A DNA stretch of 63,082 nt, the filler included, from Stramenopiles sp. TOSAG23-2 (taxonomy: Eukaryota), in NCBI GenBank assembly GCA_900128395.1. It is 56 parts of 56 records of this genome, joined end to end, with 100 filler letters (N's around TTAATTAATTAA, not from the genome) between each part and the next. Parts side by side here need not be neighbours in the genome. Positions count along the whole stretch, not along the records: positions 48,600 to 49,622 come from LT653993.1; 55 more parts are not named here. One strand, written 5' to 3'. Of this stretch, positions 6,821 to 60,841 are shown piece after piece (position 1 is the first letter of the stretch; every line of letters begins with the position of its first letter). Below the pieces are notes generated by a model, which worked only from the letters and a program-made list of their open reading frames with translations, was not told the origin of the DNA and did no database searches. The position numbers and the translations under genes were made by a program.

Positions 6821-7840
6821 GTACAATTGATTCCACAAGTAGCACATAATACAGTCATGCGAGCTATGATTGGTAATAGTATTATAACTGTTTTAAAATT
6901 TCTTACCTACCTCCGGACTGGTTCACCAGCAATGCTTAGTGAAACTGTACATACATTAGTAGATACTGGTAATCAAGCTATTTTATTAGTTGGTTTAAAG
7001 GAAGCATCAAAAGGTAGTGATGAACGGCATCCATATGGTTATGGACGTAATGCATTTTTTTGGGCACTTGTCAGTGCATTAGGTTTATTTTGGGCAGGTG
7101 CAGGCGTGACGGTATATCATGGAATTGGTGAACTAATACATCCACCTGAGCATTTAGAAGTTGGATGGGAAACATGGAGTATACTTGGATTGTCGTTTGG
7201 TATTGATGGATGGGTATTATGGAAAACGATTGAAGAATTATATCGTACAAAACCAAAAAATATTTCCATGCCTGATGTAAGTATATATAATATGGTAAAT
7301 TTATGCATATGATTATGTGCAAAAAAAAAATAAACTAACATATGTATAATAAAATATATATAACTCTCTCTATATATATAGTACATACGAAAAATTACTG
7401 ATCCATTTATTATGGCAGTTTTAATGGAAGATAGTGCTGCTTGTGCAGGTGTATTAATGGCAGTAAGTGGTATTGGGATGACAAATTTAACAAATAATGT
7501 CCATTGGGATATTTTTGCATCGATAAGCATTGGTGGTTTATTAGGTTGTGTTGCAGTATATTTAGTACGTTTAAATCAACGTTTATTATTAGGATTAAGT
7601 ATTGATGATGAAATTGAAGATGATATTAATAGTATGTTACTGTCACGACCGAGTATAGAAGCTGTTCATAGTGTTCAATCGCAATGGGTTGGTCCAAGTG
7701 CATTTAATTATAAAGCAGAAGTGGATTTTGATGGGACATACCTTGCAGCACAATTGCATCGAAATTATGAACCAATGTTTATAGAAACCAAAACATTACA
7801 AGCAGATTTACCATTATTATTAGGATGGTATGCAGAAGAT
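6821..7840 (+). CDS. Cation diffusion facilitator zinc transporter (ZnT9/SLC30A9-like), partial, two exons (6821-7276, 7382-7840)
   Basis: GSPAMLSETVHTLVDTGNQ, HPYGYG and MEDSAA motifs. The ORF-track pieces join in frame across a GT-AG intron; a further GTAAGT donor lies at 7841. Confidence 0.92.
7277..7381 (+). other. Spliceosomal intron, 105 nt
   Basis: GTAAGT donor, ACTAAC branch point near 7334, TAG acceptor; removal gives MPD|YIRKITDPFIMAV in frame. Confidence 0.9.
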
Positions 7841-28917: not shown

Positions 28918-29465
28918 ATATAGTAATATATTACTTCTTTCACTTGTTTTTATATGTCTCTTCTTTCAATAAATTTAAATTGCAGCTGTTTCGCTTTTTT
29001 AGTATATGTACATATCTGTAAATATATATGAACTCTTCGTATAAAACTCCCGTTTATAATTACGTACGTTTTGCGTTTTGCATACGGTCGGACACTAGGA
29101 GCCTACAACAGTTCTCTGGACACCAGAGGCATTTCCAGGTCCAAATCTACGTTTTCAGTACAGAGTACCTGGTACCTGGTATTGTAACAGCTACAGTTAA
29201 TAAGAATACTATAGGCAGGCTGGTAAATTGGTAAATTAATAATTTCAATAATGATTATGATGAAATTAAAAATACCAGGTAGGTATAATCTAGGTCCTAG
29301 ACTTTTCTTTAAGGTAGGTAGTATAAATTCAATACAGGTAAAGCCAAATTGCAACATNNNNNNNNNNNNNNNNNNNNNNNNNNNNNNNNNNNNNNNNNNN
29401 NTTAATTAATTAANNNNNNNNNNNNNNNNNNNNNNNNNNNNNNNNNNNNNNNNNNNNTTTTTTTT

Positions 29466-29489
29466 CAAGCAGAAGACGGCATACGAGAT
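29466..29489 (+). other. Illumina P7 adapter sequence (assembly contamination)
   Basis: Exact CAAGCAGAAGACGGCATACGAGAT at the contig start after a T run. Confidence 0.97.
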
Positions 29490-30422
29490 AAAGCTAGCGA
29501 GAATTTAAGTCGAAGTTTGAACAGTTTCAGAACGCTTGTGCAAGTGTTCACGCTCGCGTTCGGAGAAGAGGAAGAAGAGGGAGAAGACAACATAGGGGAT
29601 ATTAGTAAAGGCTTGGAGAATCTCGACATCAGTGCGGAAGGGGCGATGAAACAACTAAATGTCCTCGTCGCCGTTATTGGTAGTCTGCTGGAAATCATAG
29701 GATCGGCGCGAAACATTGAGCGTCTGGATGACTGTGGCGCAGACCCGTTTCTCGTGTTTGAGATTGCGGATATTGTCGGGAGATTTGCGAACGATCTCGA
29801 GGTTGTTCATGTGGGCGAAATCGACGCGAGCATGAAACACATAGCCGAAAGTATGCGGAAAAGAATTGCCCAGATTGCCGGAAAATACTCAGAAAAGTAT
29901 GATATACTTCAATACGGATGGGATCGAATGGAATCAATCGTATACAATTTCAATGTTCGAATTTGGAGTACCTATGATGCAGCGTACGATCCAGAGCGGC
30001 TCGAGTGCCAGATAAATTCTGGTTTCATCTCGCTTTTATTTGAAATGGTCGCAGAGAACGTTTCCATGAAATGTGACTCTTGTTTTGATAACAAGTTTGA
30101 CTCACACATGAAGTTCTTAGAGTGGGTCGAGAAATACGCGCATTCTTTGGCGAACGACATGTCGCGCATGCTCGTTGAAGGATGGCCAGAGCGCCTCCGG
30201 GCCTTGAGCTTAGACTATATAGAAATCGAACGAATAAAAAAACAATGGGTAAATCTCACGGAAGCCGTCCAAAATGGGAAGGCATCAATCGATGATCGTG
30301 TGAAAGGTCCTTCTAAAAGCGAACCGGAATGGAAGGAAACAATCGAAATAACGAAAAAGTTACTTCCACTTTTTGAAGACCTGGACGACCCGAAGCGCTT
30401 AGATGTGTGCGTCGTTCGATAA
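29490..30422 (+). CDS. Hypothetical alpha-helical protein, 5'-truncated, on a contig with higher GC
   Basis: More than 300 open codons; no motif recognised. Confidence 0.65.
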   Translation, partial: KASENLSRSLNSFRTLVQVFTLAFGEEEEEGEDNIGDISKGLENLDISAEGAMKQLNVLVAVIGSLLEIIGSARNIERLDDCGADPFLVFEIADIVGRFANDLEVVHVGEIDASMKHIAESMRKRIAQIAGKYSEKYDILQYGWDRMESIVYNFNVRIWSTYDAAYDPERLECQINSGFISLLFEMVAENVSMKCDSCFDNKFDSHMKFLEWVEKYAHSLANDMSRMLVEGWPERLRALSLDYIEIERIKKQWVNLTEAVQNGKASIDDRVKGPSKSEPEWKETIEITKKLLPLFEDLDDPKRLDVCVVR

Positions 30423-48499: not shown

Positions 48500-48768
48500 N
48501 NNNNNNNNNNNNNNNNNNNNNNNNNNNNNNNNNNNNNNNNNNNTTAATTAATTAANNNNNNNNNNNNNNNNNNNNNNNNNNNNNNNNNNNNNNNNNNNNA
48601 GAAGAAAGGAGAAGCAGAACAAGCAAACGGCAAACAACGAAACGGAGAACGAGGGAAAAAAAAAAAAGACACTGGAGAAGAAGGAAAAAAAAAACAAGAA
48701 CGAAACGGAAAAAAACAACGCCGCGACCACGAGAAGAAGAAGAAGAGACAAACAAGCAACCCAAAAGC

Positions 48769-48775
48769 AAAAAAA
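48769..48775 (-). terminator. RNA polymerase III terminator (T7) of the tRNA gene
   Basis: TTTCTTTTTTT immediately follows the discriminator base on the minus strand. Confidence 0.75.
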
Positions 48776-48823
48776 GAAATGTCTGCTGTGGGGTTTGAAC
48801 CCACGCCTACGAATAGATCAGGG

Positions 48824-48887
48824 CTGTTTGTTTTGTTTGTTAGAGAAAATTTGCTAGGAACGGTTGTACTTGTTACAGTAGACATAC
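48824..48887 (-). other. Spliceosomal-type intron 2 of tRNA-Leu, 64 nt, at position 37/38
   Basis: GTATGT 5' end, CTCTAAC branch motif, ...AAACAG 3' end. Confidence 0.85.
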
Positions 48888-48900
48888 CCTAAACCTGACG

Positions 48901-48970
48901 CTGCATTGTGATAAGGATTTTGTTTTGTTAGAGAAAATTTGATAGGAATAGTTGTACTTGTTAGACATAC
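48901..48970 (-). other. Spliceosomal-type intron 1 of tRNA-Leu, 70 nt, at position 24/25 in the D-stem
   Basis: GTATGT 5' end, CTCTAAC branch motif, ...ATGCAG 3' end. Confidence 0.85.
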
Positions 48971-49423
48971 CCTTAGACCACTCGGCCAAACAGACGAAAA
49001 GCTCGAAAGCTTATCGAAATCTGAATAAATTTTTGCAAATTTTGTGCAGATATCAAATAATTGTAATTTTTTGTTTATATACCAACAGGCAAAATTAGCC
49101 TGCAATAGCATTAACAGCAAGGACACAGCACCGGAAAACAGAAGACAAAGTAGCTCCCCACACTCTTCTTCTTTATCGTTATTATTATTCCGCACACACA
49201 CAAAATATATACATACATTAATTGATTTAATTTCTCCACACAAACAAAACAAAACACCTCCACAAACAGAACAAACAATCAACACCTCAATCTGCTTGTC
49301 CAGGTCTGTTGGGTATTTTTTACCTCTCTGTCTCCCCACGCCGACACCGACAGCCACCCAACAAGACCAACAACCACTTGTCGTCCCCCCACCACCACCA
49401 TCACCACCACCACCCACATCAAA

Positions 49424-49622
49424 ATGGAACAACCAGAAGTTATTACACCACCCTTATCCGATGTTTCCTCCTCTGGAGATGAACGTGAAGGTGATGGTGA
49501 TAGTCGTAGTATTGGTACTGATGGTGAAATACTAATAGAACAACAACAACAACAACAACCATCCTCAAGAACATATTTATCCAAAGAAATACACGATGTA
49601 CGGGATATTTATGATGATCATA
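49424..49622 (+). CDS. Hypothetical protein N-terminus, divergent from the tRNA gene
   Basis: ATG after a CA-rich leader; MEQPEVITPPLSDVSSSGDERE... open to the contig end. Confidence 0.55.
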
Positions 49623-49723
49623 NNNNNNNNNNNNNNNNNNNNNNNNNNNNNNNNNNNNNNNNNNNNTTAATTAATTAANNNNNNNNNNNNNNNNNNNNNN
49701 NNNNNNNNNNNNNNNNNNNNNNT

Positions 49724-53303: not shown

Positions 53304-53731
53304 CTATTCCATAGTAATGGTACTTTGATATGCAATTGAAACGTCGTTAGTAAAGTATCTTCCTGACACTCAGTTGTCATCAACTTACTCTTAGGTTTGG
53401 CTCTATACATGTAAAAATGAGAATCAAACCTATTTTTGTATCAATATTTTCATTGAGTTGAGATGTATTGTTTCGATTATACCCCATTTTACAATGTATT
53501 TTAAGATGCCTGAAAAGGCTATTCCATAGTAATGGTACTTTGATATGCAATTGAAACGTCGTTAGTAAAGTATCTTCCTGACACTCAGTTGTCATCAACT
53601 TACTCTTAGGTTTGGCTCTATATATGTAAAAATGAGAATCGAACCTACTTTTGTATTAATATTTTCATTGACTTGAGATATATTGTTTCAATTATACCCC
53701 ATTTTACAATGTATTTTAAGATGCCTGAAAA
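53304..53731. repeat. Tandem duplication, 215-bp unit, two copies
   Basis: CTATTCCATAGTAATGGTACTTTG...GATGCCTGAAAA starts at 53304 and 53519 with few substitutions. Confidence 0.93.
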
Positions 53732-60187: not shown

Positions 60188-60841
60188 ATGTGTCGGTTTT
60201 TCATATACAAAGGGGAATTGATTTATTTAGGTGATATATTGACACGCCCAGAACATTCATTACTTACGCAAGCGCGGAGAGCTGTTACATATACCCCTGG
60301 AGCTAATGAAAGTGTTAATTATTGCCCAGAAAAACATGTGAAAAGAAATCATGCTGTTAATGCAGATGGATTTGGTGTTGGTTACTTTAATACAGAAATT
60401 AGAGCGGAAGGTGCATTATTTAAAAGTACAACACCGGCCTGGTCAAATAATGTAAGTAAATTCTATCCCCCCATACACCCATAGCTAAACAAGAAATATC
60501 CTTTCTCTAACTCACCATTGTTTCATACACTATATAAACTATACAGAATTTAATAGAATTAAGTGAAGTTACGTTATGCAATGTGTGTTTTGCTCATATA
60601 CGTGCTGCATCGTTAGGGATGCCCTTAAGCGAATTCAACTGCCATCCCTTTCGCATGGGAAAATTCATGTGGATGCATAATGGAGGGATTGCGCATTACA
60701 ATAGTGTTAAACGATCTTTGCTTGCTGCCTTACCACCAAATGTATATAAAAATATCCAAGGAACAACTGATTCAGAAGTAGCATTTGGTATTTTCATGTC
60801 ACAATTTCCTGATCAAGGGATTCATGGACCTGGTTCGCAAT
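60188..60841 (+). CDS. Class II glutamine amidotransferase (DUG3/EgtC-like), partial, two exons (60188-60451, 60547-60841)
   Basis: N-terminal MCR, NADGFGVG, PAWSN, FAHIRAAS, NCHPF, MHNG and GTTDSE. Confidence 0.93.
60452..60546 (+). other. Spliceosomal intron, 95 nt
   Basis: GTAAGT donor, CTCTAAC at 60505, CAG acceptor; removal restores the frame. Confidence 0.9.

What the first reader, a model, noticed from the sequence alone, without database searches (positions are those of the whole stretch)
48780..48995. tRNA-Leu(UAG) gene interrupted by two spliceosomal-type (GT-AG) introns
Seen in sequence: removing 48970-48901 and 48887-48824 exactly at GT...AG boundaries gives an 82-nt tRNA-Leu(UAG) with every stem paired, intact A and B boxes and a T7 Pol III terminator. 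Both inserts have GTATGT donors, a CTCTAAC branch motif and CAG acceptors, the same signals as the mRNA introns in this window (7277-7381 and 60452-60546, the latter also with CTCTAAC). Established: eukaryotic nuclear tRNA introns are normally removed by the TSEN endonuclease, mostly at 37/38, and carry no splice-site consensus. Spliceosomal introns are known in some fungal U6 snRNA, snoRNA and rRNA genes, but I know of no described case in tRNA genes. Inference: this organism may mature tRNAs with the spliceosome. The D-stem intron (24/25) would prevent the cloverleaf folding that TSEN recognises, and no bulge-helix-bulge motif is evident by eye. Standard tRNA finders would probably miss this gene.
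Basis: partly seen in the sequence, partly recalled or inferred. Interest (0 to 1): 0.96.

Follow-up and report, generated by a model that had tools for sequence, protein, structure and literature searches.

The report
Leucine tRNA gene with two mRNA-style introns
A leucine tRNA gene of an uncultured marine microbe is cut in two places by sister copies of a short insert that carries every signal of an ordinary messenger-RNA intron; if the cell's mRNA-splicing machine removes them this would be, as far as I could find, the first such tRNA, but no spliced RNA has been seen yet.

Summary
On the minus strand, 48995-48780, removing 48970-48901 (70 nt, tRNA position 24/25) and 48887-48824 (64 nt, position 37/38) gives an 82-nt tRNA-Leu(UAG) with every stem paired. 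Standard finders miss or miscall the gene.

- **Signals.** The inserts are sister copies, 37 of 40 core bases identical. Both start GTATGT, carry CTCTAAC 27 or 16 nt before the end, and end CAG. Of 215,320 same-length windows in this assembly, only 2 show all three signals.
- **BHB motif.** Neither insert forms the bulge-helix-bulge motif used by tRNA endonucleases: 2 of 4 central pairs each.
- **Outside support.** A marine-metagenome DNA contig carries the same interrupted gene. One metatranscriptome contig spans it exactly but unspliced.
- **Not shown.** No spliced RNA, no other copies and no orthologues were found.
- **Correction.** The window is 56 unlinked ~1-kb contigs, not one locus. 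The cited mRNA introns start GTAAGT, not GTATGT.

Best reading, about 0.45: a working tRNA gene whose introns, at least the D-stem one, are removed by the spliceosome. Main rival, about 0.33: a disabled copy. No paper describing spliceosomal introns in tRNA genes turned up.

The parts
48780..48995 (-). Whole interrupted tRNA-Leu(UAG) gene (216 nt, 82 nt after removing both inserts)
   Evidence: ARAGORN calls tRNA-Leu(tag) on the in-silico spliced sequence. Not found by ARAGORN default or the Rfam tRNA model.
48971..48995 (-). Exon 1 (25 nt): acceptor 5' strand, D stem 5' strand, D loop with A box, and two of the three D-stem 3' bases. Ends ...AAGG.
48901..48970 (-). Insert/intron 1 (70 nt) at tRNA position 24/25 inside the D stem. 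It starts GTATGT, has CTCTAAC at 48933-48927 with the branch A 27 nt from the 3' end, ends CAG, and has an internal T4 run.
   Evidence: No BHB: central helix 2/4.
48888..48900 (-). Exon 2 (13-nt micro-exon): last D-stem base, position 26, anticodon stem 5' strand and loop up to G37. Anticodon TAG at 48891-48889.
48824..48887 (-). Insert/intron 2 (64 nt) at the canonical position 37/38. It starts GTATGT, has CTCTAAC at 48845-48839 with the branch A 16 nt from the 3' end, and ends CAG. It is a paralogue of intron 1 (37/40 identical core).
   Evidence: With intron 1 removed, ARAGORN accepts it as a canonical-position intron. BHB central helix 2/4, and position 32 against intron -3 is a U-C mismatch.
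48780..48823 (-). Exon 3 (44 nt): C38, anticodon stem 3' strand, long variable arm, T arm with B box (48801-48791), acceptor 3' strand and discriminator A.
48769..48775 (-). T7 run 4 nt after the discriminator (Pol III terminator-like)
49073..49081 (-). TATATAAAC box, 78-86 nt upstream of the tRNA 5' end and 33-40 nt upstream of the 5' end of the RNA-library contig
   Evidence: Its role is inferred.
48781..49041 (-). Extent of the 261-nt metatranscriptome contig (run X15) that matches exactly and contains both inserts unspliced
   Evidence: table 8, record 7. The contig's strand is not informative.
49278..49622 (+). Divergent neighbouring protein-coding gene. RNA contigs begin at 49278-49285 and the ATG is at 49424. 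The ORF runs off the contig.
   Evidence: (X15, X16, X17)

Best explanation
This is a working nuclear tRNA-Leu(UAG) gene of an AT-rich, apparently intron-poor marine eukaryote.

It has acquired two sister copies of a short U2-type (GT-AG, CTAAC-branch) spliceosomal intron. One sits in the D stem (24/25) and one at 37/38. Each follows an AGG in the tRNA.

Proposed maturation, all inferred: the precursor is transcribed through both inserts. The spliceosome removes at least the D-stem intron by the usual lariat pathway, because that intron blocks the cloverleaf and offers no endonuclease motif. The 37/38 intron goes the same way, or is afterwards cut by TSEN. Ordinary end-processing and CCA addition follow.

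Proposed origin, also inferred: one intron was copied into the second AGG|C site of the same abundant RNA by reverse splicing and reverse transcription. This is the route long proposed for the introns of U6 and other snRNA genes.

Shown here: the anatomy, the signals, the paralogy, the lack of a BHB motif, and the presence of the interrupted gene in independent DNA and in an RNA library.

Not shown: any excision event.
For: 1. Exact removal at the GT...AG boundaries restores a flawless class-II tRNA-Leu: 7-bp acceptor stem, 3-bp D stem, 5-bp anticodon stem, 5-bp T stem, long variable arm, discriminator A, A and B boxes and a T7 run. ARAGORN's single-intron alternative, Val(aac) with a 126-nt intron, has mismatched D and anticodon stems.

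2. All three spliceosomal signals sit at boundaries dictated by the tRNA: about 1e-6 by composition, and 2 of 215,320 real windows. The distance from 5' splice site to branch is 42 and 47 nt, with tails of 27 and 16 nt. CTAAC is also the branch motif of the 2 ORF-restoring mRNA introns of this assembly.

3. Likeness between the two inserts starts at the shared AGG|GTATGTCTA (12-nt exact repeat) and ends at CAG. The core is 37/40 identical, with indels elsewhere. So the duplicated unit is the intron itself, as expected if it is excised as a unit.

4. The tRNA has four AGG sites, three of them AGG|C. Two of those three carry an intron.

5. No BHB motif at either insert: central helix 2/4 in both registers (geometry taken from PMC4090602, passage read). 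The cloverleaf-constrained fold of the precursor is -24.4 kcal/mol against an MFE of -40.2.

6. Independent DNA: a 710-nt contig of marine metagenome run X1 covers 48762-49154 with no gap. All 5 listed differences lie at 49053-49084. None is listed in the 216-nt gene (0/216 against 5/177, Fisher p=0.018).

7. An RNA-library contig (X15, 261 nt, no differences) covers 48781-49041. It runs from the tRNA 3' end to 46 nt upstream, and its 5' end lies 33-40 nt downstream of a TATATAAAC box.
Against: - No spliced product, junction or lariat was seen. The one RNA-library contig over the gene bridges all four junctions unspliced at depth 2.1. It could come from DNA in that library, and it was seen in only 1 of the 3 RNA runs laid.
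- Only one gene shows this. No other tRNA gene lies in the 56 contigs. No further copy of the intron was found in the window or in the public collections scanned.
- The donor is GTATGT, while the 2 solid mRNA introns (plus a duplicated intron-like pair) use GTAAGT. Their branch-to-acceptor distances are 36-43 nt, not 16 or 27.
- Exon 2 is a 13-nt micro-exon between two introns, which is awkward for spliceosome assembly (recalled knowledge).
- Each intron has a T4 run that some Pol III enzymes read as a terminator (the rule is recalled).
- Intron 2 is at the canonical TSEN position.
- The conservation argument from X1 is weak. The 5 differences cluster within 32 nt and may be one event. The X1 contig also leaves the window's sequence downstream of 48762, so it may be another locus.
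- An intron-less Leu(UAG)-like gene with other flanks exists in the same metagenome. It could be this organism's working copy.
Confidence: 0.45

Rival explanations
1. Disabled gene copy. A mobile or transposing spliceosomal-type intron landed twice in a tRNA-Leu gene. The transcript is never correctly matured, because Pol III transcripts are poor spliceosome substrates. Another, intron-less Leu(UAG) gene does the work.
For: - Only unspliced sequence was seen in the RNA library.
- An intron-less Leu(UAG)-like gene is present in the same metagenome (record 3).
- The 13-nt micro-exon and the T4 runs inside both introns are awkward for expression.
- The precursor's best fold is not a cloverleaf.
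- No second example was found anywhere searched.
Against: - The exons show no defect at all, although the two intron copies have had time to diverge: 3 substitutions in 40 nt plus several indels. My rough estimate, not a tool result, is that about 57 constrained exon sites would stay unhit by chance only about 12% of the time.
- All splice signals are kept in both copies.
- The gene carries no listed difference in a second DNA source, while its upstream flank does.
- The intron-less gene differs at 6 of 62 aligned exon bases and has unrelated flanks, so it may belong to another organism.
Confidence: 0.33
2. Protein-endonuclease (TSEN-type) splicing at both sites, as in the multi-intron nuclear tRNA genes of Cyanidioschyzon merolae and of nucleomorphs. 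On this reading the GT/CTAAC/AG signals are only a relic of the insert's origin.
For: - Intron 2 is exactly at 37/38, and ARAGORN accepts it as a canonical intron once intron 1 is removed.
- The anticodon plus G37 (TAGG) can pair with CCTA inside intron 2, as in ordinary eukaryotic pre-tRNAs.
- Eukaryotes with ectopic and multiple tRNA introns are known (PMC4090602, passage read; PMC3728597, abstract start in the listing).
Against: - No BHB at either insert: central helix 2/4, and U32 against C(-3) is a mismatch at the anticodon-intron pair position.
- The D-stem intron prevents the mature-domain fold that eukaryotic TSEN measures from (mechanism recalled).
- It leaves unexplained why all three spliceosomal signals are intact in both diverged copies.
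Confidence: 0.12
3. Artefact or DNA-level removal: an assembly or amplification chimera, or germline-only sequences deleted from the DNA (ciliate-type IES) before expression.
For: The assembly is extremely fragmented, with contigs of about 1 kb. An Illumina-adapter-like string starts one contig.
Against: - The same interrupted gene stands in an independent metagenome DNA contig and in an RNA-library contig.
- The boundaries share only a single G, not TA or longer pointers.
- Long ORFs read with the standard code.
- No DNA contig with the inserts removed and the same flanks was seen. The one joined form has unlike flanks and 6 exon differences.
Confidence: 0.05

Closest known systems
mRNA-type (spliceosomal) introns in structural RNA genes: U6 snRNA of Schizosaccharomyces pombe and other fungi, U2/U5/U1 snRNA of Rhodotorula hasegawae, and rRNA genes of some fungi (review PMC5855946, passages read)
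   Same: A GT...branch...AG intron inside a highly structured, abundant non-coding RNA gene. For U6 the transcript is a Pol III product. The origin is proposed to be reverse splicing into an abundant RNA. Here the repeated AGG| target and a copied unit equal to the intron fit that idea.
   Different: The host is a tRNA, which that review does not list among such hosts. There are two sister introns in one 82-nt gene with a 13-nt exon between them. tRNAs have their own dedicated splicing pathway, and one of the two sites coincides with it. Splicing is proven for S. pombe U6 and unproven here.
Ectopic and multiple tRNA introns of Cyanidioschyzon merolae nuclear genes and of cryptophyte and chlorarachniophyte nucleomorphs (PMC4090602, passage read; PMC3728597, seen only as a search listing)
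   Same: A nuclear tRNA gene with more than one intron, one of them at a non-canonical position in the D arm.
   Different: Those introns are mostly short and, in C. merolae, are defined by BHB motifs recognised by the splicing endonuclease. Here no BHB exists, the inserts are 64-70 nt, and they carry spliceosomal consensus signals.
tRNA-intron transposition in Thermoproteales archaea (Fujishima et al. 2010, recalled; cited in earlier scan notes and in PMC4090602's topic list; not read here)
   Same: Sequence-related introns at different positions of tRNA genes, implying that an intron was copied to a new site.
   Different: Those are archaeal, BHB-dependent and have no splice-site consensus. 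Here the organism is a eukaryote and the signals are spliceosomal.
Introners / introner-like elements, multi-copy families of near-identical spliceosomal introns (PMC11282704 and PMC11146597, seen as search listings only)
   Same: Near-identical introns at different sites, implying recent intron gain by copying.
   Different: Only two copies are known here, both in one gene. No terminal inverted repeats or target-site duplication beyond the pre-existing AGG. No further copies in 56 kb of the assembly or in the collections scanned.

Membership tests
tRNA-Leu (class II) gene | Cloverleaf with 7/3/5/5-bp stems, long variable arm, anticodon in a 7-nt loop after U33, discriminator A73 | tested here: met
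   ARAGORN on the in-silico spliced sequence: tRNA-Leu(tag), 82 nt. Met only after both inserts are removed.
tRNA-Leu (class II) gene | Internal Pol III promoter (A box, B box) and downstream T run | tested here: met
   TGGCCGAGTGG, GGTTCAAACCC and a T7 run. The box consensus is recalled. The inserts stretch the A-to-B distance by 134 nt.
tRNA-Leu (class II) gene | Recognised by standard models (Rfam RF00005, ARAGORN default) | tested here: not met
   0 tRNA hits. ARAGORN -i miscalls it as Val(aac) with a 126-nt intron. This is expected for a doubly interrupted gene.
U2-type spliceosomal (GT-AG) intron | 5' splice site GTRNGT at the exact exon boundary | tested here: met
   GTATGT in both. The boundary can slide by 1 nt.
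U2-type spliceosomal (GT-AG) intron | Branch motif (CTAAC type) 10-50 nt upstream of a YAG acceptor, with 5'ss-to-branch distance long enough | tested here: met
   CTCTAAC, with the branch A 27 and 16 nt from CAG and 5'ss-to-branch 42 and 47 nt.
U2-type spliceosomal (GT-AG) intron | Signals match the host's own mRNA introns | tested here: inconclusive
   Only 2 ORF-restoring mRNA introns (7277-7381, 60452-60546) plus one duplicated intron-like pair. All have CTAAC but GTAAGT donors and 36-43-nt tails. They lie on other contigs.
U2-type spliceosomal (GT-AG) intron | Excised by the spliceosome as a lariat, with exons joined | tested here: inconclusive
   Logan contigs of 3 RNA runs were laid. 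One contig spans the gene unspliced and no joint was seen in RNA. Contigs cannot show absence.
TSEN / BHB-type tRNA intron | Position 37/38 (eukaryotic canonical) | tested here: inconclusive
   Intron 2 meets it. Intron 1 (24/25) does not.
TSEN / BHB-type tRNA intron | Bulge-helix-bulge: 4-bp helix flanked by two 3-nt bulges carrying the splice sites | tested here: not met
   Central helix 2/4 for both introns in both possible registers. Definition from PMC4090602.
TSEN / BHB-type tRNA intron | Anticodon-intron pair (position 32 with intron -3) for the canonical intron | tested here: not met
   U against C. The requirement itself is recalled from the yeast and Xenopus literature.
Introner-like / transposon-derived intron family | Many near-identical copies across the genome | tested here: inconclusive
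   2 copies, both in this gene. None elsewhere in about 56 kb. 0 related hits in JGI metagenome contigs (11 of 11 hits unrelated) and in IMG/VR. The rest of the genome is not available.
Introner-like / transposon-derived intron family | Terminal inverted repeats and target-site duplication | tested here: not met
   No inverted repeat joins the intron ends. The only shared flank is AGG, which the tRNA needs anyway.

The most novel reading that the evidence does not exclude
A lineage of marine eukaryotes matures a nuclear tRNA with the spliceosome. Two sister GT-AG introns spread by reverse splicing into AGG|C sites of the tRNA itself and are removed as lariats. They may be removed from a TATA-driven precursor with a 46-nt leader rather than from a classical Pol III tRNA transcript. 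This would join two intron systems that are regarded as completely separate.
Probability: 0.4. Interest if true: 0.95.

Novelty: new variant of a known kind. Interest (0 to 1): 0.8.

Why it matters
Textbooks and current reviews treat spliceosomal introns and tRNA introns as unrelated systems with separate machineries (PMC12530127, introduction passages read). The known non-coding hosts of spliceosomal introns are snRNA and rRNA genes (PMC5855946).

A tRNA that depends on the spliceosome would be a new kind of substrate. It would mean that tRNA gene catalogues built with current finders can miss essential genes in uncultured eukaryotes.

It would also give a very clean natural example of intron gain. 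The donor and the copy sit 83 nt apart in the same small RNA, so the target site (AGG|C) and the copied unit can be read directly.

The question is directly testable with junction and lariat reads.

Tried and rejected
1. Whole genome: none is held. The assembly-wide scan for other split tRNAs, an intron-less Leu(UAG) gene, and TSEN, RtcB or Trl1 could not be done.

2. Orthologues in JGI metagenome contigs: an exon-anchored pattern allowing any 24/25 insert gave 0 hits.

3. Intron family in JGI metagenome contigs: 11 loci. All 11 are unrelated on inspection, with other sequence between and around the motifs and GC of 0.29-0.49.

4. IMG/VR scans:
   - D-arm junction pattern: 0 hits.
   - Branch-region pattern: 0 hits.
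   - 5'-region pattern: 7 hits, all one conserved phage coding region and unrelated.

5. Other copies in the window: none beyond the two. No other tRNA-like B box with a gene around it.

6. Spliced RNA: no joint appears in the three RNA runs laid (X15, X16, X17, contigs only). This is no evidence of absence, because mature tRNAs are rarely captured and contigs drop rare forms.
   - X16 and X17 do not cover the gene at all.
   - X15 has no cover over 49042-49284. This fits RNA rather than DNA carry-over, but a gap in contig cover proves nothing.

7. The 145-nt 'skip' in DNA run X1 is a different, intron-less Leu(UAG)-like gene: unlike flanks and 6 of 62 exon bases different. It is not an intron-less allele of this locus.

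8. Taxonomic placement: an ESM Atlas look-up of one enzyme gave only bacterial-labelled cysteine-synthase clusters and was uninformative. The organism was left unnamed.

9. Earlier scan notes: nothing on this genome or sequence.

10. The loose pattern GTANGT...CTAAC...YAG is not enriched in the window as a whole: 9 found against 9.1 expected in shuffles. The argument therefore rests on the boundaries being fixed by the tRNA, not on motif counts.

11. Spliced-leader idea for the 215-nt duplicated unit at 53304-53730: the neighbour gene's RNA contigs start without extra leader letters. Not pursued.

12. Supplements of papers were not consulted.
Full report
**What the window is**

The 63-kb window is not one stretch of chromosome. 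It consists of 56 contigs of about 1.02-1.04 kb, joined by N44-TTAATTAATTAA-N44 linkers and sorted by length. The finding lies on the contig 48600-49622. Everything else in the window belongs to the same fragmented assembly but is not physically linked to it. Overall GC is about 29%. Other contigs encode ordinary eukaryote-type proteins: tubulin-tyrosine ligase family, aldo-keto reductase and dual-specificity phosphatase. No whole genome is held.

**The observation**

- Exon 1: 48995-48971.
- Insert 1: 48970-48901, 70 nt.
- Exon 2: 48900-48888, 13 nt, with the anticodon TAG.
- Insert 2: 48887-48824, 64 nt.
- Exon 3: 48823-48780.

ARAGORN finds nothing in the window by default. Rfam finds no tRNA at the gathering threshold or at E up to 10. 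With its intron option, ARAGORN miscalls the locus as tRNA-Val(aac) with one 126-nt intron. That structure has mismatches in the D and anticodon stems and an unstructured extra region.

After both inserts are removed in silico, ARAGORN returns an 82-nt tRNA-Leu(tag). Every stem is paired (one G-U), and it has a long variable arm and discriminator A. The A box, the B box and a T7 run four bases after the gene are present.

Insert 1 lies between positions 24 and 25, inside the D stem. Insert 2 lies between 37 and 38, the canonical eukaryotic tRNA-intron site. With only insert 1 removed, ARAGORN already accepts the gene as Leu(tag) with a canonical-position intron.

**Are the splice signals more than chance?**

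Both inserts start GTATGT and end CAG. Both contain CTCTAAC, with the presumed branch A 27 nt (insert 1) and 16 nt (insert 2) from the 3' end. The distance from donor to branch is 42 and 47 nt.

The tRNA fixes the boundaries, to within a 1-nt slide allowed by G|G...G|. The relevant question is therefore how often an arbitrary 64- or 70-nt segment of this genome shows all three signals at its ends.
- By base composition: about 1e-6.
- Empirically: 2 of 215,320 windows in the real contigs. I take these to be the two inserts themselves, although the script printed only the count.

The looser motif pattern without fixed ends is not enriched in the window: 9 found against 9.1 in shuffles. So the signal is in the coincidence with the tRNA boundaries.

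The two inserts are paralogues. A 40-nt core is 37/40 identical, with a 5-nt indel after the donor and a rearranged 3' tail. The coincidence therefore counts once, not twice.

**Comparison with the assembly's mRNA introns**

A search for GT...AG segments whose removal joins long open frames gave two solid introns, 7277-7381 and 60452-60546. Both give uninterrupted frames across the junction. It also gave a duplicated intron-like segment on another contig.
- All have CTAAC, and one has CTCTAAC.
- Their donors are GTAAGT, and CTAAC lies 36-43 nt from the acceptor.

Two introns in about 56 kb suggests an intron-poor genome, the kind in which strict GTAWGT / CTAAC signals are usual (the last clause is recalled knowledge).

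**Anatomy that bears on mechanism**

1. Likeness between the two inserts begins at AGG|GTATGTCTA, a 12-nt exact direct repeat whose first three bases are exon. It ends at CAG. The exon sequences beyond AGG are unrelated. The copied unit is thus the intron itself and not a block of the gene.
2. The spliced tRNA has four AGG sites, three of them followed by C. Two of those three carry an intron.
3. No inverted repeat joins the intron ends, and there is no target-site duplication beyond the AGG that the tRNA needs anyway. A cut-and-paste DNA element is therefore unlikely.
4. Neither insert can form the bulge-helix-bulge motif. In the register defined by the splice sites, the central 4-bp helix has 2 of 4 pairs for both inserts and for both possible 1-nt registers. 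Position 32 faces a C at intron -3. The motif geometry was checked against PMC4090602.
5. The precursor's minimum-energy fold (-40.2 kcal/mol) is not a cloverleaf. Forcing the mature helices costs about 16 kcal/mol.
6. Awkward points for any expression route: each intron holds a T4 run, and the middle exon is only 13 nt.

**Outside evidence**

The contig's words occur in 20 public marine or seawater runs from 13 studies, 6 of them metatranscriptomes. Four runs were laid, all as Logan contigs.
- **DNA run X1, 710-nt contig.** It covers 48762-49154 without a gap, so both inserts stand in a second DNA data set. Its 5 listed differences all lie at 49053-49084, upstream of the gene. None is listed within the gene (0/216 against 5/177, p=0.018). 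The five are clustered and may be one event. The contig also departs from the window's sequence below 48762, so it may be a second locus or a structural variant.
- **DNA run X1, a second contig.** This is an intron-less Leu(UAG)-like gene with unrelated flanks and 6 of 62 exon bases different. It cannot be assigned to this organism.
- **RNA run X15, 261-nt contig.** It is identical to 48781-49041. It runs from the last paired base of the acceptor stem to 46 nt upstream of the tRNA, through both inserts, unspliced, at depth 2.1.
- **RNA runs X16 and X17.** They cover only the divergent neighbour gene. Its RNA contigs begin at 49278-49285 in three studies (ATG at 49424).

The 5' end of the X15 contig lies 33-40 nt downstream of a TATATAAAC box (49081-49073). 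This suggests, but does not show, a TATA-directed start with an unusually long leader. An RNA-library contig can stem from carried-over DNA, and contigs cannot define RNA ends. I therefore take this only as a hint that the interrupted gene is transcribed. No spliced form was seen, which with this kind of data says little.

**Searches for relatives**

All were negative.
- JGI metagenome contigs: 0 hits for an exon-anchored pattern allowing any insert at 24/25.
- JGI metagenome contigs: 11 hits for an intron pattern, all 11 unrelated.
- IMG/VR: 0, 0 and 7 hits. The 7 are a phage coding region.
- No further copy lies in the window, and there is no other tRNA gene among the 56 contigs.

**Literature**
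- The phrase 'spliceosomal introns in tRNA' occurs in 0 papers of the library.
- None of the titles and abstract starts listed by searches combining tRNA genes with spliceosomal / mRNA-type introns, GT-AG, branch point, introner, reverse splicing or intron transposition described such a case.
- The U6 review lists spliceosomal introns in U6, U2, U5 and U1 snRNA genes and in rRNA genes, with reverse splicing as the suspected origin. It does not mention tRNA (PMC5855946, passages).
- Multiple and ectopic tRNA introns in C. merolae and nucleomorphs are described as depending on BHB motifs (PMC4090602, passages).
- Subscription-only papers and supplements were not searchable.

**Weighing**

The sequence facts are hard to explain unless the inserts are, or very recently were, real spliceosomal introns:
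- signals at tRNA-fixed boundaries;
- a copied unit equal to the intron;
- an AGG| target at both sites;
- no BHB motif;
- donor-to-branch spacing in the workable range.

Whether the gene still works is open.
- **For function:** flawless exons despite measurable divergence of the two intron copies, retained signals in both copies, no listed change in the gene in a second DNA source, and a likely transcript.
- **Against function:** only unspliced sequence in RNA data, a single example, the micro-exon, the internal T4 runs, and a possible intron-less substitute gene.

My estimates:
- Working gene with spliceosomal removal of at least the D-stem intron: 0.45.
- Disabled copy: 0.33.
- Endonuclease-type removal at both sites: 0.12.
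- Artefact or DNA-level removal: 0.05.
- The remainder is unassigned.

**Verdict**

If splicing is shown, this extends spliceosomal introns to a new class of host RNA and links two intron systems thought to be separate. The test, junction and lariat reads in raw RNA data or tRNA-seq, is simple and decisive.

Noticed in passing
whole window (e.g. 1038-1137, 48500-48599, 49623-49722): The window is a chain of 56 contigs of about 1 kb joined by N44-TTAATTAATTAA-N44 linkers and sorted by length. Neighbouring genes in window coordinates are not neighbours in the genome.
   Followed up: yes
29458-29490: One contig starts with a T run followed by a string that looks like an Illumina adapter (recalled from memory as the P7 flow-cell sequence). 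This suggests untrimmed adapter in the assembly.
   Followed up: no
53304-53730 (minus strand): An approximately 215-nt unit occurs twice in tandem. Each copy ends in the same 85-nt GTAAGT...CTAAC...TAG intron-like segment preceded by a short conserved stretch. Its nature is unclear: duplicated exon-intron, or a small RNA gene. A spliced-leader role is not supported by the neighbour gene's RNA contigs.
   Followed up: partly
48762 and below, compared with run X1: The metagenome DNA contig that carries the interrupted tRNA gene leaves the window's sequence 18 nt after the gene and continues with unrelated sequence. The window's own downstream stretch (48600-48694) is present in the same run on another contig. 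It may be a second gene copy, a structural variant, or a misjoin at the T/C-rich low-complexity tract.
   Followed up: no
run X1, record 3, aligned to 48785-48824 and 48970-48991: An intron-less tRNA-Leu(UAG)-like gene with different flanks and 6 of 62 exon bases different is present in the same marine metagenome. Its owner organism is unknown.
   Followed up: partly
49278-49622 (+): A divergent neighbour gene. RNA contigs from three studies begin at 49278-49285, the ATG is at 49424, and the N-terminus is acidic and Q-rich. Its leader has CAC/CCA-type repeats where contigs break or vary (2-nt insertion at 49257, and a replaced segment in one RNA contig).
   Followed up: partly
48875-48885 versus 48779-48789: The 5' part of intron 2 is 10/11 complementary to the 3' strand of the acceptor stem plus the discriminator, because it mimics the tRNA's own 5' end. 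It could compete with acceptor-stem formation in the precursor. At this threshold 12 inverted pairs were found in 401 nt, so it may be chance.
   Followed up: no
48854-49453 (minus strand): A 199-codon stop-free frame runs through the upstream region, exon 1, intron 1, exon 2 and the start of intron 2. It is low-complexity and was taken as chance, not as a gene.
   Followed up: no
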